Part shown: positions 1 to 59,614 of the stretch, one piece after another
Layout: each line of letters begins with the position of its first letter
How positions within the stretch are numbered: the first letter of the stretch is position 1
NCBI RefSeq assembly: GCF_050920415.1
Contig: NZ_CP169309.1
DNA: 64,000 nt
Source: Escherichia coli
GTDB lineage: Bacteria > Pseudomonadota > Gammaproteobacteria > Enterobacterales > Enterobacteriaceae
Strand: one strand, 5' to 3'
Position numbers and translations under genes: made by a program
Notes under the pieces: model-generated
What the model saw: only the letters and a program-made list of their open reading frames with translations
Database searches by the model: none
What the model was told of the DNA's origin: nothing

Positions 1-1679
1 AACTCCGCCGGAAAAGAAACCGCCGCAAACCTGTGCCCTATGAACTCATTCCGGGTTCGCTGGCGCGTATGCTGTGCGCCGACTGGTGGTATCGGAAATT
101 ATGGAAGATGCGTTGCGAATGGCGGGAAGAGCAGTTGCGTGCTGTCTGTCTGGTCAGCAAAAAAGCATCTCCCTATGTCAGCTATGAAGCCGTGATGCAT
201 AAACGTGAGCAGCGCCGTAAGTCGCTGGAGTTTTTCCGTTCTCATGAACTGGTGAACGAAGACGGCGACACGCTGGACATGGAGGATGTGGTAAACGCCA
301 GCAGCAGCAACCCTGCGCATCGCCGCAATGAGATGATGGCCTGTGTTAAAGGCCTGGAGCTTATCGCGGAAATACGCGGTGACTGCGCCGTTTTCTACAC
401 CATCACCTGTCCGTCACGTTTCCATTCCACGCTAAATAACGGCAGGCCCAACCCGACCTGGACAAATGCGACGGTAAGACAAAGCAGTGATTATCTGGTT
501 GGCATGTTTGCTGCATTTCGTAAGGCGATGCACAAAGCCGGATTGCGCTGGTATGGCGTGCGGGTGGCTGAGCCGCATCATGACGGTACAGTTCACTGGC
601 ACCTGTTGTGTTTTATGCGCAAAAAAGATCGCCGCGCCATTACTGCTTTGTTGCGTAAGTTTGCCATTCGTGAAGACCGCGAGGAGCTGGGGAATAACAC
701 GGGACCACGCTTTAAGTCTGAGTTGATTAACCCGCGCAAAGGAACGCCGACAAGCTACATCGCGAAATATATCAGTAAGAACATTGACGGGCGTGGTCTG
801 GCTGGCGAGATCAGCAAGGAAACGGGTAAATCCCTGCGTGATAACGCTGAATACGTGAATGCCTGGGCGTCTCTGCATCGTGTTCAGCAATTCCGCTTCT
901 TTGGCATTCCGGGGCGTCAGGCTTACCGTGAACTGCGATTGCTGGCTGGTCAGGCGGCAAGGCAACAGGGTGACAAAAAAGCAGGTGCGCCGGTACTGGA
1001 TAACCCGCGCCTTGATGCAATCCTGGCTGCTGCTGATGCTGGTTGTTTTGCCACCTACATCATGAAGCAGGGCGGCGTACTGGTTCCCCGTAAATATCAC
1101 CTCATCAGAACCGCTTATGAAATCAACGAAGAGCCAACCGCCTATGGCGATCACGGTATTCGTATTTATGGCATCTGGTCACCCATTGCAGAGGGCAAGA
1201 TCTGCACTCATGCAGTGAAGTGGAAAATGGTTCGTAAGGCCGTTGACATTCAGGAGGCGGCAGCCGACCAGGGCGCTTGCGCCCCTTGGACTCGTGGCAA
1301 TAACTGTCCCCTTGCTGAAAATTTGAACCAACAGGAGAAAGATAAATCAGCTGATGGGGGCCCCAGAACGGACTTTACCCGCATGGATGACAAGGAGTTG
1401 CACGATTACCTGCACAGTATGAACAAAAAGGGGCGCCGGGAACTGGCTGCAAGGTTACGTCTGGTGAAACCGAAACGGCGTAGAGACTACAAACAGCGAA
1501 TTACAGACCATCAACGACAGCAGCTCGTCTATGAACTGAAATCCAGAGGATTTGATGGCAGCGAGAAAGAGGTCGATTTACTCCTTCGCGGCGGCAGTAT
1601 TCCGTCAGGAGCAGGCCTGCGTATCTTCTATCGGAACCAGCGTTTGCAGGAAGATGATAAGTGGCGGAACCTGTATTAA
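1..1679 (+). CDS. phage replication initiation protein (P2 gpA-like rolling-circle endonuclease), 5' end outside window
   Basis: Frame is open from window start (no stop before the GTG at 33); 548+ aa resembling P2/186 gpA; position upstream of the A-Q variable region. Confidence 0.8.
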
Positions 1680-2321: not shown

Positions 2322-2352
2322 GGCGATGTCAATCAGATATCGCCTTGTTTTT
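2322..2352 (+). terminator. putative rho-independent terminator after DinI-like gene
   Basis: ggcgat...atcgcc stem followed by ttgtttttt. Confidence 0.35.
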
Positions 2353-2379
2353 TGTCAAGAAAAGAATAATAGGCTAAAA

Positions 2380-3057
2380 ATGAAAATTAATAATGTAGCG
2401 TTACCAATATCTCTTGCTGTAATCCTAACTGGTTGCGTGCCACATGCTTCTAACCGAAATATCACTGCTATTGAAGTGGTGAAGCCTGCTATTGGGCAAA
2501 GTGCTACCGCCTACATGGGCGATCCCATTATCACATCTGCTACTGGATTTAAAACGGACGTACTAGAACTTGGTGCGGCTAATGGTGCATTGTCTTCTAT
2601 CGCTGCTGGTACATATTGCAGTGAGGGGAATGGAATTTACCGCAATTATCATAACCCTCAAGCTGTTGCGTTAAAAAATCTCTATGGGCAAATCGGTAAC
2701 TATGTTGATTATGTTAGTTACGATGCTGCAAAAAATGAGATATCACCGCCAAATGGTACTTCTTATACTGCATCAGAAATTTCTATCAAACGTGTTCCTG
2801 ATGGGCTGTGTCGAGTTAGTAACTCATTGGTTAAGACTATCGAATACAATGGAAATGCAGGCGGTGTAATGAAGTTCACCTATCGTGAATTTGCAAACGA
2901 TATGGCTCGTGCAGCATTTACAACAGATTTTTCTGTAGATTCTAAGGGAAGTGACGTTATCGCTTACAAAGGTGCCAAGTTCAAAGTGAACAAGGCTGAT
3001 AACTCGTCTATTTCTTATACAATTATTTCTGGCTTTGACAAGGCTGTCACGTTCTAG
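2380..3057 (+). CDS. orphan lipoprotein (225 aa), unknown function
   Basis: Signal peptide MKINNVALPISLAVILTG followed by Cys (lipobox LTGC); AT-rich relative to phage backbone; ORF-track start 2326 trimmed to ATG 2380. Confidence 0.6.
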   Translation: MKINNVALPISLAVILTGCVPHASNRNITAIEVVKPAIGQSATAYMGDPIITSATGFKTDVLELGAANGALSSIAAGTYCSEGNGIYRNYHNPQAVALKNLYGQIGNYVDYVSYDAAKNEISPPNGTSYTASEISIKRVPDGLCRVSNSLVKTIEYNGNAGGVMKFTYREFANDMARAAFTTDFSVDSKGSDVIAYKGAKFKVNKADNSSISYTIISGFDKAVTF

Positions 3058-3186: not shown

Positions 3187-3230
3187 CGTAGATCATGCAG
3201 GTGCATGAAAACCACTACATAAAGCGGGCA

Positions 3231-3250
3231 GGCGTGGCGGGGATACGAGC
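3231..3250. other. candidate cos (cohesive end) site of P2/186-like phage
   Basis: ggcgtggcggggatacgagc resembles the GGCG(A/T)GGCGGGGAAAGCA(C/T) cohesive-end sequence of P2/186 as I recall it; lies between the accessory region and the portal end. Confidence 0.3.
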
Positions 3251-3374
3251 GCGCGCTCATGGTTGAATTAATGAAATTATGGTGTTAAATAGGCTAGCTT
3301 TTTAAGTCGTGAATATTTGTCAACGCCAAGATTATTGGCCGTTTTTCGCCATTTTTAATGTCCGCTATTGGTCA

Positions 3375-4167
<793 letters not shown>

Positions 4168-4171
<4 letters not shown>

Positions 4172-5338
4172 AACAGCTCCTCATAGGCACTCAACGGCCT
4201 GTGTTCCACCTGACTGACCTGCTGCCAGAGTGGGGCGTGATGCTCCGGCACGGTCTGCCAGCCGTATACAGCCGAACAGAGACGGTGCGATGCTACCTGT
4301 TGCTCATTACTGTAGATCCGCAGTTCATCATCCAGCGAGATCCGTATTGATACCGGCTGGCCACACAGGCTTTCCGGCACGCTGTAACGGTTCCCGCCAA
4401 CCTCGATATAGCCATCCCAGGAGACATGACGGATATCGAAGTAGCTGGTATCGAAGTCCGTACCTGGCAGCGCCTGCAGATGCACCTGTTCCTGCGTGAA
4501 GCGCTGTTCCGGTGTCTGCCTGAACTGGCGAAGTCCCGCCTGTCGGCAACGTCAGCCATCCACTGCTCCAGTAGCTGATTAACATGGGCGAAGCTGTCGA
4601 ACCGGCGGTACCGGACGAAGAAGTTTTCCTTGAGGTATTTCACCATCCGTTCCACCTTACCTTTGGTTCTGGCCCTTCGTGGACGGCAGGCCCGTGGCAG
4701 GAAGCCATAGTGATGGCCAGCAGCAGGAACCCGGAGTTGAACACCACCTTCCCGTTGTTATTTTTCAGCACTGCGGCTTTCTGGTTATCGACCAGCACGG
4801 TTTTCACGCTGCCGCCGAAGTAGCGAAAGGCGCGGACCAGTGACTCATAGGTATGTTCAGCATCCTGCTTTGGTGCCGCGAAGACATGGAAGCGACGTGA
4901 GAACCCCAGCGTATTAACCGCGAAGTTAACCCTGCATCGTTGCCCGGCAACCTCAGCCTCAACTTCTCCCCAGTCATGCTGTAGCTGGTAACCGGGCTGA
5001 GTTTCGAAGCGAACCGTTTTCTTCGATGGCCGCATCTTACGTTTGGGCTGGATGTAGTAACGCAACATGGAACGGCCACCGGTATAACCCATCGCTTTGA
5101 TTTCCGCCAGGATGACCTCGCCGTTCCAGACATTCTCAGCCAGACGCATGTCGATATAGTCCATGAACGGCTTGAGTTTGGCCATTTTGTGGCGTGTTTT
5201 TCTGGCCGGAGGTTCCGGGTATTTCAGGTACCGTCTGACAGTCCGCTCAGAGCAACCAACCTGAGTGGCAATATCAACAATATACGCACCTTGCTGGCGC
5301 ATTTGCTTTATCATGTAAAAGTCCTCTCTGCTCAGCAT
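4168..5338 (-). pseudogene. istA: istA (IS21 transposase) split by at least two frameshifts
   Basis: Three consecutive ORF fragments (4640-5338, 4293-4655, 4168-4485) together cover an IstA-like protein. Confidence 0.6.
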
Positions 5339-5485
5339 GAGTGTTCCCTTTGTGGTGTAGGAACCTTAAGGAAACAACATGTTGGGTGGAGCGGACAATC
5401 CAAATGGTGAATTACTGTCTTATATCATTGGCGCTGACATATTCAATTTTTCAACTCATTTTTTTCATAGGGAGGAGTAATTGAC

Positions 5486-6184
5486 ATGGTTATGTTAGTG
5501 GATGACTGTCCACGATGTGGATCACAAAAAATAGCGTTTGATGTTAATGGGCTGAATTGCACTAGGGTTTACAATGCATTGGGCGGGGGTAAAACATACG
5601 AGTACGAGGTCTATTGTGTTTGCCGAGAGTGTCATAAAACGACAATGTTTCTTTGCAGACCTTTAACGAAAAATAAAACTTTAGATGGCTATAATTGGGA
5701 AAGTGGAATATTCGGCTTAAAGGAAGTTGCAGAGGTTGTTAGGCCTATATCACCGGCAGACTTAGCAGTAGAGGAGCCACCAGAGTTCTTACCTGAGCAT
5801 ATCAATAGTGCATATGAGGAAGGGGCGAAATGTTTGGCTATAGGTTGTTATAATGCAGCAGCAACCATGTTTAGGCTTTGCCTTGATTATGCCACAAAAG
5901 GACTTCTTCCTGATGGGGAGCAAGGGCCTGCGCAAAAAATAAGGAGAAGCCTAGGGTTAAGAATGGAGTGGTTATTTGATAATCATCTACTGCCTGAAGC
6001 TTTAAGGGAACTAGCTGAATGCGTTAAAGATGACGGAAATGATGGAGCGCATGAAGGTATTTTGGATAAAGCTGCTGCTGAGGATCTTGAAGATTTTACC
6101 TATCTTTTTTTAGAACGGCTTTACACTGAACCTCAACGCCTTATCGAAGCCAAGACAAGGCGTGAACAAAGAAGAAACAAATAA
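5486..6184 (+). CDS. orphan protein with N-terminal 4-Cys zinc ribbon and C-terminal DUF4145-like domain; candidate phage-encoded defence/abortive-infection gene
   Basis: CPRC...CREC motif at N-terminus; C-terminal region with LAECVKDDGNDGAHEG signature typical of DUF4145 as I recall it; agggaggag RBS; AT-rich; sits between IS21 and the portal gene. Confidence 0.6.
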   Translation: MVMLVDDCPRCGSQKIAFDVNGLNCTRVYNALGGGKTYEYEVYCVCRECHKTTMFLCRPLTKNKTLDGYNWESGIFGLKEVAEVVRPISPADLAVEEPPEFLPEHINSAYEEGAKCLAIGCYNAAATMFRLCLDYATKGLLPDGEQGPAQKIRRSLGLRMEWLFDNHLLPEALRELAECVKDDGNDGAHEGILDKAAAEDLEDFTYLFLERLYTEPQRLIEAKTRREQRRNK

Positions 6185-6192
6185 GTTCGGAA

Positions 6193-7230
6193 TTATTCTT
6201 CTGAAAGAATATAGGGCGTAAATTTAATCACTTCTTCGCCCAGCCAGTCGTTCAGCTCTTGTAGCCTTTTTTGCAAGGGAGTTAATTCATTACGTACAAA
6301 TACGCGACTGGCCTTCTCCACATCCCCAAACCCTCCAACATTATTAGGCATAATCCCCATCATTTGCGGCGGCACGCGGTGCGCAGCCATCATGTCGTCG
6401 CGGCTGACATTTTTGATATTCAAAAACTCATCCTTCGCCGCGACTTCTGACAATGGGATGATCTGAAGCCCGTCTTTTTTGCCGTTAGGCGAGTACATAA
6501 ACAGGTTGCGGAAGTTGCCTGGACCTTTGGCGCTTTTCATCGCATTGCGGAGGTTGTTCACATCCTCCTGGTTTTGCGCGGCATCGGTCATGTACATGAT
6601 AAAGCCCGCATGACTGCCGTTAATGTAATACTTGCGACGGAACAGCGTGGCGGACTCGTTGAGCAGGGCTGACGGAATGGCAGAAAGATAACCGGGCAGG
6701 CCGTAGATCTCCTGATTAATATCCGGTTCCATCAGATGAAAAATGCTGCCTTTCGTGAACTGATACGGCTGGGTTGTCATACCGTATTGCACAAACCAGT
6801 AGGTATCCAGGTCTAACCCGCGTCGGGTGTATTTTGCCAGTGCAGGCTCAAGGGCGATAACTTCACCGAAGCGGTTCGTGCGTTTCTCCAGGTAGGCGTT
6901 ACCAAAAACCAGATAGTCCTGCACAAAACGCGAAAAAGCCTGCTGGCTGAGCAGCGGGTGAGGGATGTAGGTGCTGGTCAGAATGTTGCACTTTACTGCA
7001 ATCGGGGAACTATGATGCACGGCAGCGCGGAAGGTGCGCGCCAGTCCGTCAAAGCTGACGGGCGGCTCATACCAGCGGTCCATCTGTACGCATTCCACAT
7101 AATCCAGCAGTTCTCGGCGGTCCAGAACAGGAACGGGATCGCCGAAGCTGAATGCTTCGGCTGTAGTTTGACTTTTAAGCTGGATCTGTTTCGTCGCCGC
7201 AGCGCGGTTCTTCTTACTCTTTCCCATCAA
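6193..7230 (-). CDS. portal protein (P2 gpQ-like)
   Basis: 345 aa, P2 Q-like; divergent from capsid operon; overlaps terminase gene by 4 nt. Confidence 0.9.
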   Translation of the reverse strand: MMGKSKKNRAAATKQIQLKSQTTAEAFSFGDPVPVLDRRELLDYVECVQMDRWYEPPVSFDGLARTFRAAVHHSSPIAVKCNILTSTYIPHPLLSQQAFSRFVQDYLVFGNAYLEKRTNRFGEVIALEPALAKYTRRGLDLDTYWFVQYGMTTQPYQFTKGSIFHLMEPDINQEIYGLPGYLSAIPSALLNESATLFRRKYYINGSHAGFIMYMTDAAQNQEDVNNLRNAMKSAKGPGNFRNLFMYSPNGKKDGLQIIPLSEVAAKDEFLNIKNVSRDDMMAAHRVPPQMMGIMPNNVGGFGDVEKASRVFVRNELTPLQKRLQELNDWLGEEVIKFTPYILSEE

Positions 7231-28420: not shown

Positions 28421-28903
28421 TTATTCATCTGGGATCTCACCCGTTTCAAGAAAATGTATAAAGCCAGGCTCATCTATGATGATAGTGCCTTTCATCCTGG
28501 CTGCCGATACTTTTGATGGGCCTGCATTGTAACCGCAACAGAGCATCTGAAGGTTTTGGGTTACAGATGTTCTTACCGTTAATCCTTGTTCATTCGCCTT
28601 ATCAACCAACCTTTCTTTATCTGCTTTCTTAAATCCGGTGAAACACACATCGAATGTATTTTTTTTCGGACCTGACTGCTTAGTGAGATGTGAGTAGTTT
28701 TCGGGGAGGAATGACGCGCATTCCTGAATGGCTTGTTCTTGTGAATCGTATTGTTTAAGAATGCGGTCTTTTCGGAAGGTTTTTATTCGATCGGTGTTCT
28801 TACAAATGCCCTGTATGTGATTTTCGCTATAACTGATGCTCTGTATTGAGTGAACACCGATACGACCATTTGCATTGATGTAAACAAAGTGAAGTTCTTC
28901 CAT
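28421..28903 (-). CDS. orphan protein with N-terminal WYL-like region and C-terminal BRCT-like domain (160 aa)
   Basis: R-x-F-R-x-D-R-I signature (IKTFRKDRI) in N-half; C-half FDVCFTGF...CCGYNAGPSKVSAARMKGTIIIDEPGF fits BRCT pattern; AT-rich; between ogr and ssrA. Confidence 0.5.
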   Translation of the reverse strand: MEELHFVYINANGRIGVHSIQSISYSENHIQGICKNTDRIKTFRKDRILKQYDSQEQAIQECASFLPENYSHLTKQSGPKKNTFDVCFTGFKKADKERLVDKANEQGLTVRTSVTQNLQMLCCGYNAGPSKVSAARMKGTIIIDEPGFIHFLETGEIPDE

Positions 28904-29026: not shown

Positions 29027-29389
29027 TGGTGGAGCTGGCGGGAGTTGAACCCGCGTCCGAAATTCCTACATCCTCGGTACTACATGCTTAGTCAGTCTTT
29101 ACATTCGCTTGCCAGCTGCGGACGGACACGCCACTAACAAACTAGCCTGATTAAGTTTTAACGCTTCAACCCCAGGCAGGGCTTCCACGCGATCTCTTTT
29201 GGGTTTGACCTCTCTTGATCCCCGTCCTAAGAGCGGAGGCTAGGGAGAGAGGGCTCTAAGCAGGTTATTAAGCTGCTAAAGCGTAGTTTTCGTCGTTTGC
29301 GACTATTTTTTGCGGCTTTTTACGAGGCCAACCGCCCCTCGGCATGCACCTTGGGTTTCGCAAATCCCGTCGAATCCAGAATCAGCCCC
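29027..29389 (-). ncRNA. ssrA: tmRNA (SsrA), 363 nt
   Basis: Reverse complement matches E. coli tmRNA from GGGGCUGAUUCUGG 5' end to GCCAGCUCCACCA 3' end, including tag-encoding region. Confidence 0.95.
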
Positions 29390-47126: not shown

Positions 47127-47153
47127 AGTGTTGCCTTTTTGTTATCAATAAAA

Positions 47154-47178
47154 AAGGCCCCCCGGTTTGGGAGGCCTT
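47154..47178 (-). terminator. pheA attenuator terminator
   Basis: On minus strand aaggcctccc-aaac-cggggggcctttttt between pheL and pheA. Confidence 0.6.
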
Positions 47179-47223
47179 ATTGTTCGTCTTCGCATTCTGT
47201 TTCACACGACGAAACGCCTCCCA

Positions 47224-47271
47224 TTCAGGGGAAGGTAAAAAAGAATGCGAAGAAAAACGGTGTGTGTTTCA
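47224..47271 (-). CDS. pheL: pheA leader peptide
   Basis: Minus strand ATG AAA CAC ACA CCG TTT TTC TTC GCA TTC TTT TTT ACC TTC CCC TGA = MKHTPFFFAFFFTFP. Confidence 0.85.
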
Positions 47272-47326
47272 TGTTTGTTTCCTTAAGTGACTTTAGTACA
47301 GTACCCGTACTGTTTTCACGCTGTCA

Positions 47327-51390: not shown

Positions 51391-51451
51391 CCTAAAGAAT
51401 CAAGACGATCCGGTACGCGTGATTTTCTTTTCACATTAATCTGGTCAATAA

Positions 51452-51482
51452 CCTTGAATAATTGAGGGATGACCTCATTTAA
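51452..51482 (+). promoter_or_regulatory. sigma32 heat-shock promoter of clpB
   Basis: CCTTGAA -35 and GACCTCATTTA -10-like element ~40 bp upstream of clpB. Confidence 0.5.
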
Positions 51483-51519
51483 TCTCCAGTAGCAACTTTG
51501 ATCCGTTATGGGAGGAGTT

Positions 51520-54093
51520 ATGCGTCTGGATCGTCTTACTAATAAATTCCAGCTTGCTCTTGCCGATGCCCAATCACTTGCACTCGGGCACGACAACCAA
51601 TTCATCGAACCACTTCATTTAATGAGCGCCCTGCTGAATCAGGAAGGGGGTTCGGTTAGTCCTTTATTAACATCCGCCGGCATCAATGCTGGTCAGTTGC
51701 GCACAGATATCAATCAGGCATTAAATCGTTTACCGCAGGTTGAAGGCACTGGTGGCGATGTCCAGCCCTCACAGGATCTGGTGCGCGTTCTTAATCTTTG
51801 CGACAAGCTGGCGCAAAAACGTGGTGATAACTTTATCTCGTCAGAACTGTTCGTTCTGGCGGCACTTGAGTCTCGCGGCACGCTGGCCGACATCCTGAAA
51901 GCAGCAGGGGCGACCACCGCCAACATTACTCAAGCGATTGAACAAATGCGTGGAGGTGAAAGCGTGAACGATCAAGGAGCTGAAGACCAACGTCAGGCTT
52001 TGAAAAAATACACTATCGACCTCACCGAACGAGCCGAACAAGGCAAACTCGATCCGGTGATTGGCCGTGATGAAGAAATTCGCCGTACCATTCAGGTACT
52101 GCAACGTCGTACTAAAAATAACCCGGTGCTGATTGGTGAACCAGGCGTTGGTAAAACAGCCATCGTTGAAGGTCTGGCTCAGCGTATTATCAATGGCGAA
52201 GTACCGGAAGGGCTGAAAGGCCGCCGCGTACTGGCGCTGGATATGGGCGCGCTGGTGGCCGGGGCGAAATATCGCGGTGAGTTTGAAGAACGTTTAAAAG
52301 GCGTGCTTAACGATCTCGCCAAACAGGAAGGCAACGTCATCCTGTTTATCGACGAATTACATACCATGGTCGGTGCGGGTAAAGCCGATGGCGCAATGGA
52401 TGCCGGCAACATGCTGAAACCGGCGCTGGCGCGTGGTGAATTGCACTGCGTAGGTGCCACGACGCTTGACGAATATCGCCAGTACATCGAAAAAGATGCT
52501 GCGCTGGAACGTCGTTTCCAGAAAGTGTTTGTTGCCGAGCCTTCTGTTGAAGACACCATTGCTATTCTGCGTGGCCTGAAAGAACGTTACGAACTGCACC
52601 ACCATGTGCAAATTACTGACCCGGCAATTGTTGCAGCGGCGACGTTGTCTCATCGCTACATTGCTGACCGTCAGTTGCCGGATAAAGCCATCGACCTGAT
52701 CGATGAAGCAGCATCCAGCATTCGTATGCAGATTGACTCAAAACCAGAAGAACTCGACCGACTCGATCGTCGTATCATCCAGCTCAAACTGGAACAACAG
52801 GCGTTAATGAAAGAGTCTGATGAAGCCAGTAAAAAACGCCTGGATATGCTCAACGAAGAACTGAGCGACAAAGAACGTCAGTATTCCGAGTTAGAAGAAG
52901 AGTGGAAAGCTGAGAAAGCGTCGCTTTCTGGTACGCAGACCATTAAAGCGGAACTGGAACAGGCGAAAATCGCCATTGAACAGGCTCGCCGTGTGGGTGA
53001 TCTGGCGCGGATGTCTGAACTGCAATATGGCAAAATTCCAGAACTGGAAAAGCAACTGGAAGCCGCAACGCAGCTCGAAGGCAAAACTATGCGTCTCTTG
53101 CGTAATAAAGTGACCGACGCCGAAATTGCTGAAGTGCTGGCGCGTTGGACGGGGATTCCGGTTTCTCGCATGATGGAAAGCGAGCGCGAAAAACTGCTGC
53201 GTATGGAGCAAGAACTGCACCATCGCGTTATTGGTCAGAACGAAGCGGTTGATGCGGTATCTAACGCTATTCGTCGTAGCCGTGCGGGGCTTGCGGATCC
53301 AAATCGCCCGATTGGTTCATTCCTGTTCCTTGGCCCAACTGGTGTGGGTAAAACTGAGCTTTGTAAGGCGCTGGCGAACTTTATGTTTGATAGCGACGAG
53401 GCGATGGTCCGTATCGATATGTCCGAGTTTATGGAGAAACACTCGGTGTCTCGTCTGGTTGGTGCGCCTCCGGGATATGTCGGTTATGAAGAAGGTGGCT
53501 ACCTGACCGAAGCGGTGCGTCGTCGTCCGTATTCCGTCATCCTGCTGGATGAAGTGGAAAAAGCGCATCCGGATGTCTTCAACATTCTGTTGCAGGTACT
53601 GGATGATGGACGTCTGACTGACGGGCAGGGGAGAACGGTCGACTTCCGTAATACGGTTGTCATTATGACCTCTAACCTAGGTTCCGATTTGATTCAGGAA
53701 CGCTTCGGTGAACTGGATTATGCGCACATGAAAGAGCTGGTACTCGGTGTGGTAAGCCATAACTTCCGTCCGGAATTCATTAACCGTATCGATGAAGTGG
53801 TGGTCTTCCATCCGCTGGGTGAACAGCACATTGCGTCGATTGCGCAGATTCAGTTGAAACGTCTGTACAAACGTCTGGAAGAACGTGGTTATGAAATCCA
53901 CATTTCTGACGAGGCGCTGAAACTGCTGAGCGAGAACGGTTACGATCCGGTCTATGGTGCACGTCCTCTGAAACGTGCTATCCAGCAGCAGATCGAAAAC
54001 CCGCTGGCACAGCAAATACTGTCTGGTGAATTGGTTCCGGGTAAAGTTATTCGCCTGGAAGTTAATGAAGACAGGATTGTCGCCGTCCAGTAA
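51520..54093 (+). CDS. clpB: disaggregase chaperone ClpB
   Basis: 857 aa from ATG 51520 ([11 protein letters not shown]); two AAA+ modules. Confidence 0.95.
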
Positions 54094-54535: not shown

Positions 54536-56070
<1,535 letters not shown>

Positions 56071-56242
56071 CCTTAAAGAACTGTTCTTTGCAGTGCTCAC
56101 ACAGATTGTCTGATGAAAAGTGAATAGCAAGGCGTTTACGCGTTGGGAGTGAGGCTGAAGAGAATAAGGCCGTTCGCTTTCTGTTAATGAAAGCTCACCC
56201 TACACGAAAATATCACGCAGCGCGTGATAAGCAATTTTCGTG

Positions 56243-56318
56243 TCCCCTTCGTCTAGAGGCCCAGGACACCGCCCTTTCACGGCGGTAACAGGGGTTCGAA
56301 TCCCCTAGGGGACGCCAC
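56243..56318 (+). tRNA. gltW: tRNA-Glu (UUC) in 16S-23S spacer
   Basis: gtccccttcgtctagaggcccaggacaccgccctttcacggcggtaacaggggttcgaatcccctaggggacgcca. Confidence 0.95.
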
Positions 56319-56501
56319 TTGCTGGTTTGTGAGTGAAAGTCGCCGACCTTGATATCGTTAAAGATGACTTACGAGTCATGTTTAAGATATTTGCTCTTTA
56401 AAAATCTGGATCAAGCTGAAAATTGAAACACTGAACAACGAAAGTTGTTCGTGAGTCTCTCAAATTTTCGCAATCAGAAGTGAAACATCTTCGGGTTGTG
56501 A

Positions 56502-59401
<2,900 letters not shown>

Positions 59402-59494
59402 ACAACGCCGAAGATGTTTTGGCGGATTGAGAGAAGATTTTCAGCCTGATACAGATTAAATCAGAACGCAGAAGCGGTCTGATGAAACAGAATT

Positions 59495-59614
59495 TGCCTG
59501 GCGGCCTTAGCGCGGTGGTCCCACCTGACCCCATGCCGAACTCAGAAGTGAAACGCCGTAGCGCCGATGGTAGTGTGGGGTCTCCCCATGCGAGAGTAGG
59601 GAACTGCCAGGCAT
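59495..59614 (+). rRNA. rrf: 5S ribosomal RNA
   Basis: TGCCTGGCGGCC...GGAACTGCCAGGCAT, 120 nt. Confidence 0.95.

What the first reader, a model, noticed from the sequence alone, without database searches (positions are those of the whole stretch)
5486..6184. Zinc-ribbon + DUF4145-like orphan gene between putative cos and the portal gene
A 232-aa protein (CPRC...CREC zinc ribbon, then a DUF4145-type C-terminal domain with a DDGNDGAHEG-like signature) sits in a slot that in P2 is only ~130 bp of non-coding DNA between cos and Q. It is AT-rich against a GC-rich backbone, has its own strong RBS and is not part of any virion module. DUF4145 domains recur in bacterial immunity islands, and the A-to-Q region of P2-like phages is a recognised hotspot for anti-phage cargo. 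This is my best candidate for an uncharacterised single-gene defence or abortive-infection function.
Basis: partly seen in the sequence, partly recalled or inferred. Interest (0 to 1): 0.78.

Follow-up and report, generated by a model that had tools for sequence, protein, structure and literature searches.

The report
RAZR-like zinc-ribbon RNase defence gene
This P2-like prophage gene encodes a zinc-ribbon plus HEPN RNase protein distantly related to the recently characterised abortive-infection protein RAZR (PD-T7-4), so it is probably another phage-defence gene of a known kind and not an orphan; in this genome an insertion sequence has cut it off from its upstream DNA.

Summary
The ORF is real: 5486-6184 (+), 232 aa, low GC, strong RBS, a CPRC...CREC zinc ribbon, and a Pfam DUF4145 domain (E 7e-7).

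It is not an orphan. The protein is 100% identical to CARTA_1 of Escherichia phage Cartapus (the E. coli LF82 prophage). It belongs to a large family of about 230-aa proteins (1,859 clusters at 50% identity).

This family shares RAZR's architecture, the x7 spacing before the catalytic His, and a fast-evolving zinc-finger domain. It differs in having Lys181 where RAZR has its catalytic Arg, and in a longer, variable linker.

About 50 viral contigs carry it 14-48 bp from a P2-type portal gene, in convergent orientation. It is rare in E. coli: 45 of 5,426 complete genomes. Published LF82 RNA-seq shows it is transcribed in the lysogen.

In this window a 2.1-kb IS21-family element lies between cos and the gene, 46 bp upstream of the ATG, so expression here is uncertain.

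Verdict: a probable, untested RAZR-like defence gene in the known P2 hotspot. Moderate interest.

The parts
3199..3257 (.). P2-type cos site of the prophage
   Evidence: Exact matches to the cos core and to the sequence just after it in phage Cartapus, whose positions 1-59 are annotated 'putative cos site'. The same core is conserved in E. coli 08-00022 and in about 17 IMG/VR loci.
3258..3317 (+). Native upstream region of the gene, with a conserved block directly after cos (possible promoter or cos flank). It is now 2.2 kb away from the gene.
   Evidence: Identical to Cartapus 60-118. The block 'tcatggttgaa...tgtggtatcaaa' is conserved among diverged alleles. The simple consensus promoter scan found nothing on the + strand here, so the promoter assignment is an inference.
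3318..5439 (-). IS21-family insertion sequence. istA and istB are on the minus strand and each is split into several ORFs. Ends TGTCAACGCC... / ...GGCGCTGACA, with a 4-bp 'tatt' target duplication.
   Evidence: NCBIfam transpos_IS21 (E 1.5e-49) and IS21_help_AAA IstB (E 5e-43), both below the curated cut-offs because the ORFs are fragments. The junctions were read against Cartapus. Similarity to LF82 starts at window 5435.
5440..5485 (+). Remaining 46 bp of native leader, including the GGGAGGAG ribosome-binding site
   Evidence: Identical to Cartapus 116-161.
5486..6184 (+). RAZR-like gene, 232 aa, 100% identical to Cartapus CARTA_1 and, at 100% DNA identity, to the LF82 gene annotated WP_000245245.1
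5486..5665 (+). N-terminal Cys4 zinc-ribbon domain (aa 1-60). Knuckles C8/C11 (nt 5507-5518) and C46/C49 (nt 5621-5632).
   Evidence: The four Cys are invariant in 32 homologues and are Cys in 101 of 104, 102 of 102, 109 of 110 and 109 of 110 non-gap residues among 111 sequences. The AF2 model has beta strands at 3-6, 16-30, 36-46 and 52-59.
5666..5785 (+). Linker (aa 61-100), the most variable segment. It includes a predicted strand at 82-88.
   Evidence: Mean column entropy 3.22, against 1.90 for the HEPN domain. Identity between alleles is 18-78%. Model.
5786..6100 (+). DUF4145/HEPN domain (aa 101-205)
6026..6052 (+). Predicted catalytic motif K181-DDGNDGA-H189. This is the R-x7-H motif of DUF4145/RAZR with Lys in place of Arg.
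   Evidence: K181, G184, N185, D186, G187, A188 and H189 are invariant in 32 close homologues. In 111 sequences (the query plus 110 representatives), position 181 is R in 63, K in 37, Q in 5 and T in 2, and H189 is His in 107 of 109 non-gap residues. Distant phage relatives have R here. RAZR's catalytic residues are R146 and H154.
6101..6181 (+). End of a long C-terminal helix (aa 195-231) with a basic tail (RREQRRNK)
   Evidence: AF2 model. R225 and R229 are invariant.
6193..7230 (-). Portal gene Q of the P2-like prophage. It is convergent with the gene, 8 bp from its stop codon, and no tQ-like terminator lies between them.
   Evidence: TIGR01540, E 1.2e-111. No terminator-like site at the junction and no hairpin followed by a U-run. 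P2 has tQ at the corresponding place.

Best explanation
The gene encodes a single-protein abortive-infection nuclease of the zinc-ribbon/HEPN (DUF4145) kind. It is a distant relative of RAZR (PD-T7-4) and is carried as accessory cargo in the cos-to-Q slot of a P2-like prophage.

Proposed mechanism:
- In its native context, the prophage expresses the protein during lysogeny.
- The fast-evolving N-terminal zinc-ribbon domain and linker act as the sensor. They bind a multimeric protein of a superinfecting phage. By analogy with RAZR this would be a portal or recombinase ring.
- Binding repositions the dimerising C-terminal HEPN domains, whose K181...N185...H189 site then cleaves RNA, stops translation and aborts the infection.

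What is shown: the domain architecture, the HEPN fold, the conservation pattern, the weak but significant match to the PD-T7-4 model, the genomic slot, and lysogenic transcription in LF82.

What is inferred: defence activity, RNase activity with Lys in place of Arg, and the nature of the trigger.

In this particular window an IS21-family element has separated the intact ORF from cos and from its native upstream DNA, so the gene may be poorly expressed here.
For: Architecture and fold:
- An invariant Cys4 ribbon plus Pfam DUF4145.
- The AF2 model (pLDDT 83.8) has a beta-rich N-terminal domain and a helical C-terminal domain.

Homology to a validated system:
- The only PADLOC hit is PD-T7-4, E 1.2e-6. 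For other family members the match is E 3e-8 and spans residues 7-214 against profile positions 15-182 of 211, so it covers both domains.
- PD-T7-4/RAZR is a Zn-finger/HEPN abortive-infection protein whose R146 and H154 are required, and whose zinc-finger domain sets specificity and is its most variable part.

Same pattern in this family:
- The basic residue and the His have the same x7 spacing.
- Between alleles, the zinc-ribbon domain is 28-80% and the linker 18-78% identical, against 46-95% for the HEPN domain.

Context:
- The gene lies in the published P2 gpA-gpQ hotspot and is listed there as cargo in Rousset Table S5A.
- The slot holds different cargo or nothing in other P2-like phages.
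- The gene is present in only 45 of 5,426 complete E. coli genomes, against 1,244 with a P2-type portal, so it is dispensable for the phage.
- Its upstream partners differ between prophages, which points to a single-gene unit.

Expression: in LF82, CARTA_1 reads log2(fpkm+5) 4.7 in LB and 9.5-9.6 in macrophages, while the adjacent portal gene stays at 2.5-3.1.
Against: - No experiment exists for this subfamily in the literature I could search. It was not among the P2 systems cloned by Rousset et al..
- The match to the PD-T7-4 model is weak (24-31 bits). I could not obtain the RAZR sequence or structure for a direct alignment.
- The catalytic Arg of RAZR (R146A abolishes defence) is Lys in this whole clade.
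- The linker is about twice as long as RAZR's and is the least conserved part, whereas RAZR's linker is described as mostly conserved.
- A portal-sensing protein encoded by a phage that makes its own portal ring raises a self-activation problem that nothing here resolves.
- In this window the IS insertion 46 bp upstream may silence the gene.
Confidence: 0.6

Rival explanations
1. The ORF is intact but functionally silenced in this genome. The IS21-family insertion removed its promoter or read-through transcription, so it is a stranded cargo gene on its way to decay. This concerns the gene's current state and is compatible with the defence reading of the protein.
For: - The IS sits 46 bp upstream of the ATG, between the gene and the conserved post-cos block.
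- No sigma-70-like site was found on the + strand in 5340-5486.
- The gene abuts the istA-proximal end of the IS. From my own knowledge of IS21, that end is not the one known to carry an outward -35.
- None of the complete E. coli genomes searched shares this junction; the best coverage was 87%.
Against: - The protein is 100% identical to the Cartapus protein, with no frameshift or stop, and the RBS is intact.
- The real promoter has not been mapped, so it could lie within the remaining 46 bp or form at the IS junction.
- The consensus scan is crude.
Confidence: 0.3
2. The protein serves the phage itself at the packaging or portal step, for example as a cos- or portal-associated factor or nuclease, and does not defend the host against other phages.
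For: - It is tightly and repeatedly placed next to packaging genes: 14-48 bp from the portal gene in about 50 P2-like contigs, even where gpA is only 30-35% identical.
- It is gene 1, between cos and terS, in Gordonia phage Meyran.
- It lies upstream of terL in two other viral contigs.
- RAZR physically binds portal rings.
Against: - It is absent from P2 and from about 96% of E. coli genomes that carry a P2-type portal.
- The slot holds unrelated cargo in another prophage.
- It is transcribed in lysogens while the portal and terminase genes are silent.
- Relatives also occur in the nin region of lambdoid phages next to HigBA, beside an integrase, after tail genes, and in a Nitrospira chromosome with no obvious mobile element nearby.
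Confidence: 0.08
3. It is a catalytically altered decoy. A phage-encoded RAZR look-alike would coat the phage's own portal, or co-assemble with a host RAZR, and so block host abortive infection. That would make it an anti-defence gene.
For: - The Arg that RAZR requires is replaced by Lys in every portal-linked allele.
- The gene is phage-borne and adjacent to the portal gene.
Against: - The motif K-DDGNDGA-H is invariant in the clade, and N185 and H189 are conserved family-wide. An inactive site would be expected to drift.
- Lys is a conservative substitution, and R and K alternate within one family.
- The gene is expressed in the lysogen and not together with the late genes.
Confidence: 0.05
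4. It is a DNA-binding regulator, as the PHROG label says, or a stand-alone HEPN addiction toxin.
For: - PHROG 1305 is labelled 'DNA binding protein' (E 9.5e-53), as is one GenBank record of a Stx-phage homologue.
- Many HEPN proteins are toxins of toxin-antitoxin pairs.
Against: - The PHROG label is an annotation carried over, not a tested function.
- No helix-turn-helix or other DNA-binding Pfam hit was found.
- No conserved neighbouring antitoxin exists: the native upstream is cos and the downstream gene is the portal gene.
- RAZR is not toxic on its own.
Confidence: 0.05

Closest known systems
RAZR (= PD-T7-4) of E. coli UMB1727 (Vassallo et al. 2022, PMC9519451; Zhang et al. 2026, PMC13017515)
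   Same: - Single gene of about 220-230 aa.
- N-terminal Cys4 zinc ribbon, then a linker, then a C-terminal DUF4145/HEPN domain.
- A basic residue and a His separated by 7 residues.
- The zinc-finger region is the fastest-evolving part.
- Found on mobile elements, and some family members sit beside an integrase, as reported for PD-T7-4.
- Significant hit to the PADLOC PD-T7-4 model.
   Different: - The similarity is only 24-31 bits against the PD-T7-4 model.
- Lys181 replaces the essential Arg146.
- The linker is about 40 aa and variable, against 14 aa and mostly conserved in RAZR.
- There is a long C-terminal helix with a basic tail.
- It is carried between cos and the portal gene of a P2-like prophage.
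- Trigger, oligomeric state and RNase activity are untested.
DS-38 (DefensePredictor; WP_001313577.1, gene of 1,101 bp)
   Same: A validated E. coli defence protein with a zinc finger and a HEPN domain. Its authors compared it with PD-T7-4.
   Different: It is a different, longer protein of about 366 aa. Its authors found that only its HEPN domain aligns with PD-T7-4. It is not this gene.
Other DUF4145/HEPN defence proteins: BxaP (BREX-associated; PMC10799925) and Ishtar (anti-plasmid; bioRxiv 10.64898/2026.07.06.735840)
   Same: They use a DUF4145-type HEPN domain as the presumed effector in immunity.
   Different: In these proteins the HEPN domain is N-terminal and fused to other domains (a HEAT-like domain, or a beta-rich C-terminal domain). 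They have no zinc ribbon.
old, tin and other cargo of the P2 gpA-gpQ hotspot (Rousset et al. 2022, PMC9122126; Vassallo et al. 2022)
   Same: Same variable, cos-adjacent region of P2-like prophages, with AT-rich accessory genes that exclude other phages.
   Different: The proteins are unrelated. Here the gene lies on the Q side of cos, at the left end of the virion DNA, and not between A and cos.

Membership tests
RAZR / PD-T7-4 family | N-terminal Cys4 zinc-ribbon domain | tested here: met
   CPRC (8-11) and CREC (46-49) are invariant in 32 homologues. They are Cys in 101 of 104, 102 of 102, 109 of 110 and 109 of 110 non-gap residues among 111 sequences. The AF2 model is beta-rich here.
RAZR / PD-T7-4 family | C-terminal DUF4145 domain with a HEPN fold | tested here: met
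RAZR / PD-T7-4 family | Catalytic His (H154 in RAZR) | tested here: met
   H189 is invariant in 32 homologues and is His in 107 of 109 non-gap residues.
RAZR / PD-T7-4 family | Catalytic Arg eight positions before the His (R146 in RAZR; R146A abolishes defence) | tested here: not met
   Position 181 is Lys in this protein and in all 32 close homologues. Across 111 sequences it is R in 63, K in 37, Q in 5 and T in 2. The spacing is the same. Whether Lys supports catalysis is unknown.
RAZR / PD-T7-4 family | Sequence match to the family model (PADLOC PDLC04109) | tested here: inconclusive
   E 1.2e-6, 26 bits, residues 36-200 against profile positions 39-165 of 211. Family members give E 3e-8 to 6e-6 over residues 7-216 against positions 15-186. 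This is significant but weak. No RAZR sequence or structure was retrievable for a direct alignment.
RAZR / PD-T7-4 family | The zinc-finger domain is the most variable region (the specificity determinant) | tested here: met
   Mean column entropy is 2.53 for the zinc-ribbon domain and 3.22 for the linker, against 1.90 for HEPN.
RAZR / PD-T7-4 family | Short, mostly conserved linker packing on the HEPN domain | tested here: inconclusive
   Here the linker is about 40 aa and is the least conserved segment. Its packing could not be inspected because the tool does not return model coordinates.
RAZR / PD-T7-4 family | Abortive-infection phenotype; not toxic alone; activated by assembling as a 24-mer around phage portal or Gp77 rings; non-specific ssRNA cleavage | not testable with these tools
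   These need phage challenge, co-expression, biochemistry and cryo-EM.
HEPN superfamily, DUF4145 family (Anantharaman et al. 2013, PMC3710099) | Alpha-helical HEPN core with an R-x(n)-H motif. The paper's table lists the motif as conserved in about 80% of DUF4145 members and lists zinc-ribbon fusions. | tested here: met
   The fold is met. The His is met, and the Arg is replaced by Lys. The paper's table notes that the motif is only 'mostly conserved (80%)' and notes fusion to a zinc ribbon.
Cargo of the P2 gpA-gpQ defence hotspot | Lies between gpA and gpQ next to cos; variable occupancy among P2-like prophages; atypical base composition | tested here: met
   Window layout. A different cassette in E. 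coli 08-00022 and an empty slot in P2. 45 genomes carry the gene against 1,244 with the portal. GC profile. Listed in Rousset Table S5A.
Prophage moron (expressed in the lysogen) | Transcribed in the lysogen independently of lytic genes | tested here: inconclusive
   Published LF82 RNA-seq gives CARTA_1 about 25.6 normalised reads in LB, against 5-8 for virion genes. That is below the authors' 5-fold moron cut-off, but the value reaches 9.5-9.6 log2 in macrophages against 2.5-3.1 for the portal gene. There are no data for the IS-disrupted copy in this window.

The most novel reading that the evidence does not exclude
A sensor of portal-type rings is kept genetically welded to the prophage's own portal gene. 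The linkage would let each zinc-finger allele co-segregate with a 'self' portal that it does not recognise. The convergent arrangement, with only 8 bp between the genes and no terminator, would let late P-Q transcription silence the gene by antisense interference during the phage's own lytic cycle. That would be a self/non-self solution for an immune sensor whose trigger class the carrier phage itself produces.
Probability: 0.12. Interest if true: 0.7.

Novelty: new member of a known kind. Interest (0 to 1): 0.4.

Why it matters
If active, this gene would extend the RAZR mechanism, a zinc-finger/HEPN RNase switched on by assembling on a phage protein ring, to a large and distant sister family (1,859 clusters at 50% identity with E<=1e-3).

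It would show whether Lys can replace the canonical HEPN Arg.

It would also pose a concrete question: how does a prophage that builds its own portal ring carry such a sensor without killing itself on induction?

On the practical side, it adds one more probable defence gene to the P2 hotspot catalogue. It also gives a case in which an insertion sequence may have disarmed that gene.

Tried and rejected
- **Second metal site.** I asked whether the four invariant Cys in the HEPN domain (C116, C121, C132, C179) bind a second metal. Rejected: across 111 sequences they are often Ser or Ala.
- **Identity with DS-38**, the validated ZF-HEPN system of DefensePredictor. Rejected: DS-38 is WP_001313577.1, a gene of 1,101 bp.
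- **NCBIfam.** No family matched.
- **Zinc-ribbon Pfam models.** Only a non-significant Lar_restr_allev hit, E 1.7.
- **Partner gene or toxin-antitoxin pair.** None is conserved.
- **Promoter and terminator.** The consensus scan found no + strand promoter in front of the gene and no terminator at the gene/Q junction. Folding the junction gave no significant structure, z -1.3 to -1.7.
- **Strict vertical co-inheritance with the portal gene.** Not supported as the only process: alleles only 57% identical sit next to portals that are 88% identical.
Full report
**Observation.** The ORF at 5486..6184 (+) exists and encodes 232 aa.
- It has two CxxC knuckles (C8-P-R-C11 and C46-R-E-C49) and the stretch DDGNDGAHEG at residues 182-191.
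- A GGGAGGAG Shine-Dalgarno sequence lies 8 nt before the ATG.
- GC is 0.40-0.43, against 0.55-0.62 in the adjacent virion genes.
- Pfam finds DUF4145 at residues 114-203 (i-Evalue 7e-7).
- The convergent downstream gene (6193..7230, minus strand) is a PBSX/P2-type portal gene (TIGR01540, E 1e-111), followed by the terminase ATPase, scaffold and P2-family capsid genes.

**Anatomy of the window.**
- The protein is 100% identical to CARTA_1 of Escherichia phage Cartapus (Peduoviridae, Elveevirus), the P2-like prophage of E. coli LF82. In that record cos is annotated at 1-59, the gene at 162-860 and the portal gene at 869-1903.
- In the window the same cos sequence is at about 3199-3257 and the Cartapus post-cos sequence continues to 3317.
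- A 2,122-bp IS21-family element follows at 3318-5439. Its istA and istB are on the minus strand, each broken into fragments. A 4-bp 'tatt' duplication flanks it.
- Similarity to Cartapus resumes 46 bp before the ATG.
None of the complete E. coli genomes searched has that junction.
- The host is E. coli: the pheA-tyrA-aroF region is 99.8% identical.
- Upstream of cos lie the 3' part of gpA (33..1679), a DinI-like ORF and an AT-rich lipoprotein-like ORF.
- P2 itself has no gene here: cosL is 1-19, the tQ terminator 160-181, and Q ends at 187.

**Not an orphan.**
- A search of 5.8 billion proteins gave 603 hits. The best 120 are all about 230 aa, cover the full length, and are at least 49% identical. 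They come from Enterobacterales, Pseudomonas, Oceanimonas, Kushneria, Nitrospira and metagenomes.
- A profile search of 1.84 billion 50%-identity representatives gave 1,859 clusters at E<=1e-3, 719 at E<=1e-10 and 226 at E<=1e-30.
- In 32 diverse members, these residues are invariant: C8, C11, C46, C49, E112, R130, D134, K181, G184, N185, D186, G187, A188 and H189.
- In 111 sequences (the query plus 110 full-length representatives), the four ribbon Cys, E112, R130, N185 and H189 stay nearly invariant.
- Position 181 is R in 63, K in 37, Q in 5 and T in 2 of them.
- The HEPN-domain cysteines are often Ser or Ala.
- More distant phage relatives (a lambdoid phage, Burkholderia phi644-2, Gordonia Meyran) have R at that position.

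**Structure.**
- AlphaFold2 with this alignment gave mean pLDDT 83.8. The model has beta strands at 3-59, a strand at 82-88, and helices at 104-118, 122-138, 148-165 and 195-231. The loop 184-187 is of low confidence.
- In Foldseek the only high-probability matches were the HEPN proteins 1o3u, 2q00, 1wol and 2hsb.
- AFDB50 shows a continuum of 200-250-aa DUF4145 proteins that align over the full length, down to about 19% identity.

**What is known.**
- DUF4145 was placed in the HEPN RNase superfamily in 2013, and zinc-ribbon fusions were noted then (PMC3710099).
- PADLOC gives a single hit, PD-T7-4 (E 1.2e-6). Other family members score E 3e-8 over both domains.
- PD-T7-4 was found in a functional screen and described as 'Zn finger-HEPN' (PMC9519451).
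- In February 2026 it was renamed RAZR (PMC13017515). RAZR has a Cys4 zinc-finger domain, a linker and a DUF4145/HEPN domain.
  - R146 and H154 are essential.
  - The protein is not toxic alone.
  - It is activated when 24 copies assemble around the 24-mer Gp77 ring of SECphi27 or around the dodecameric portals of T7, T3 and SECphi18.
  - It then cleaves ssRNA non-specifically and stops translation.
  - The zinc-finger domain is the most variable part and sets specificity.
- The P2 gpA-gpQ region is a published defence hotspot (PMC9122126, PMC9519451).
- Rousset's Table S5A already lists WP_000245245, the accession this gene carries in LF82, as 'DUF4145' cargo. It is not among the systems they cloned.
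- DS-38, a validated ZF-HEPN system, is a different, longer protein.
- I found no experiment on this subfamily.

**Same as RAZR and different from it.**
- Same: a single gene of similar size; Cys4 ribbon, then linker, then HEPN; a basic residue and a His with x7 spacing; a fast-evolving sensor region.
  - Zinc-ribbon identity between alleles is 28-80% and linker identity 18-78%, against 46-95% for HEPN.
  - Mean column entropies are 2.53 and 3.22 against 1.90.
- Different: the similarity to the family model is weak; Lys replaces the essential Arg in every close relative; the linker is longer and poorly conserved; there is a long C-terminal helix with a basic tail.
- I could not align directly to RAZR. 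Its sequence and its PDB entries (9Y9C, 9Y6U) were not retrievable.
- I therefore file the gene under the kind (zinc-ribbon/HEPN single-protein abortive-infection systems) as a sister family, and not as a RAZR orthologue.

**Context and population.**
- Of 79 IMG/VR loci, every locus at least 49% identical that still has downstream sequence, except one (L038), lies convergent to a P2-type portal gene. That is about 50 loci.
  - All but three of these are 14-48 bp from it.
  - This holds even where the portal is only 62-68% identical and gpA only 30-35% identical.
  - The Dickeya copy is in the same slot.
- Alleles only 57% identical also sit beside portals that are 88% identical.
- The slot carries an unrelated 97-aa ORF plus terminator in E. 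coli 08-00022, with similarity breaking exactly after cos.
- So the slot behaves as a cassette site bounded by cos and the 3' end of Q.
- More distant relatives lie in several other contexts:
  - upstream of terminase genes;
  - after tail genes;
  - in a lambdoid nin region beside HigBA;
  - beside an integrase;
  - in a Nitrospira chromosome.
- In complete E. coli genomes the gene occurs in 45 of 5,426, against 1,244 with a P2-type portal. It is therefore dispensable for the phage.

**Expression.**
- In the LF82 RNA-seq re-analysed by Misson et al. 2023 (S1 Table), CARTA_1 (LF82_788) reads log2(fpkm+5) 4.65/4.71 in stationary LB and 9.52/9.62 inside macrophages at 6 h. The adjacent portal gene stays at 2.5-3.1.
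- The gene is therefore transcribed in the lysogen independently of the late genes, although in LB it falls below the authors' 5-fold moron cut-off.
- The upstream cargo genes rise in parallel, so read-through across cos is possible.
- In this window either source of transcription is interrupted by the IS, and no consensus promoter was found in the remaining 46 bp. Expression here is uncertain.
- No tQ-like terminator separates Q from the gene. Late P-Q transcripts would therefore run antisense through it. This is an inference from the sequence.

**Mechanism, with status.**
- Shown: the architecture, the HEPN fold, the conserved K...N...H site, the variable sensor region, a statistically significant but weak match to a validated abortive-infection system, accessory status in a defence hotspot, and lysogenic transcription in a sister strain.
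- Inferred: that the protein defends against phages; that it is an RNase with Lys substituting for Arg; that it is kept inactive until its zinc-ribbon/linker region binds a multimeric phage protein; and that this trigger is ring-shaped, as for RAZR.
- My rough probabilities are 0.75 for an anti-phage role, 0.7 for HEPN nuclease activity, and 0.35-0.4 for a ring-type trigger.

**Rivals.**
- Silencing by the IS concerns the gene's state and not its kind (0.3).
- A packaging or portal role for the phage itself is suggested by the recurrent position, but is contradicted by rarity, by absence from P2 and by lysogenic expression (0.08).
- An inactive decoy or anti-RAZR protein is suggested by K181, but is contradicted by the invariant motif (0.05).
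- A DNA-binding regulator or a lone toxin rests only on an annotation label (0.05).

**Novelty and interest.**
It sits in a hotspot described in 2022, where this very protein accession was already catalogued.
- What remains open and interesting:
  - the Arg-to-Lys change;
  - the size of this sister family;
  - how a prophage that makes its own portal ring can carry a relative of a portal-ring sensor right beside its portal gene.
- Interest 0.4.

Noticed in passing
window 3318-5439: IS21-family insertion sequence (2,122 bp, 'tatt' target duplication) inserted between cos and the gene. Both istA (fragments at 4640-5338, 4293-4655 and 4168-4485) and istB (3812-4171 and 3375-3788) are split into several ORFs, so the element looks decayed, or the sequence carries errors. 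Its last 135 bp match 2,420 of 5,426 E. coli genomes, most of them at 90-95% identity and mostly on plasmids.
   Followed up: partly
window 2326-3057 (+): AT-rich ORF of 243 aa between gpA and cos. It has an internal Met followed by a lipoprotein-like signal (LAVILTGC). It matches PHROG 1353 (unknown function, E 4e-105), with no PADLOC or NCBIfam hit. This is different cargo from what LF82 carries at the same place, and a possible surface or exclusion lipoprotein.
   Followed up: partly
window 28421-28903 (-): A 160-aa ORF at the far end of the prophage, just before ssrA. It is the same length (483 bp) and in the same position as Cartapus CARTA_32, a 'putative exonuclease' that is a moron 15-fold above background in LF82. 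I did not compare the sequences directly. It has weak PADLOC hits to PDC-S48 (E 1.6e-7) and to the C-terminus of SspE.
   Followed up: partly
window 29027-29389 (-): The tmRNA gene ssrA (Rfam, 296 bits) lies directly beyond the prophage end, so the prophage appears to be integrated at or next to ssrA. An rRNA operon is at 54536-59612, a Phe leader at 47148-47273 and RyfD at 51401-51539.
   Followed up: no
L089 (E. coli 08-00022, NZ_CP013662.1) 2138-2431: In another P2-like prophage the same cos-to-Q slot holds an unrelated 97-aa ORF (WP_000849765.1) followed by a GC-rich hairpin. Similarity to the window breaks immediately after the cos core. There is no PADLOC hit. The Q side of cos is therefore a small cassette site of its own.
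   Followed up: partly
window 6193-6310 (3' end of portal gene Q): In all ten listed spread-sample P2-type portal matches that cover most of the gene, other than the 99.9% hit, the alignment starts only at query positions 34-119. So the last 11-40 codons of Q, those next to the cassette, diverge together with the cassette.
   Followed up: no
L003 (Escherichia phage PhiR5_2) 5040-5714; also Shigella Stx phages POCJ13 and 75/02: A branch of the same zinc-ribbon/DUF4145 superfamily, about 25% identical and with Arg in the motif, sits in the nin region of lambdoid and Stx phages next to a HigB/HigA pair. One record annotates it only as 'DNA binding protein'.
   Followed up: partly
L009 (Gordonia phage Meyran) 94-783: An actinophage carries a homologue (27% identity; PADLOC PD-T7-4 E 3.8e-5) as gene 1, between the genome end and the small terminase gene. 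This echoes the cos-adjacent position seen in P2-like phages.
   Followed up: no
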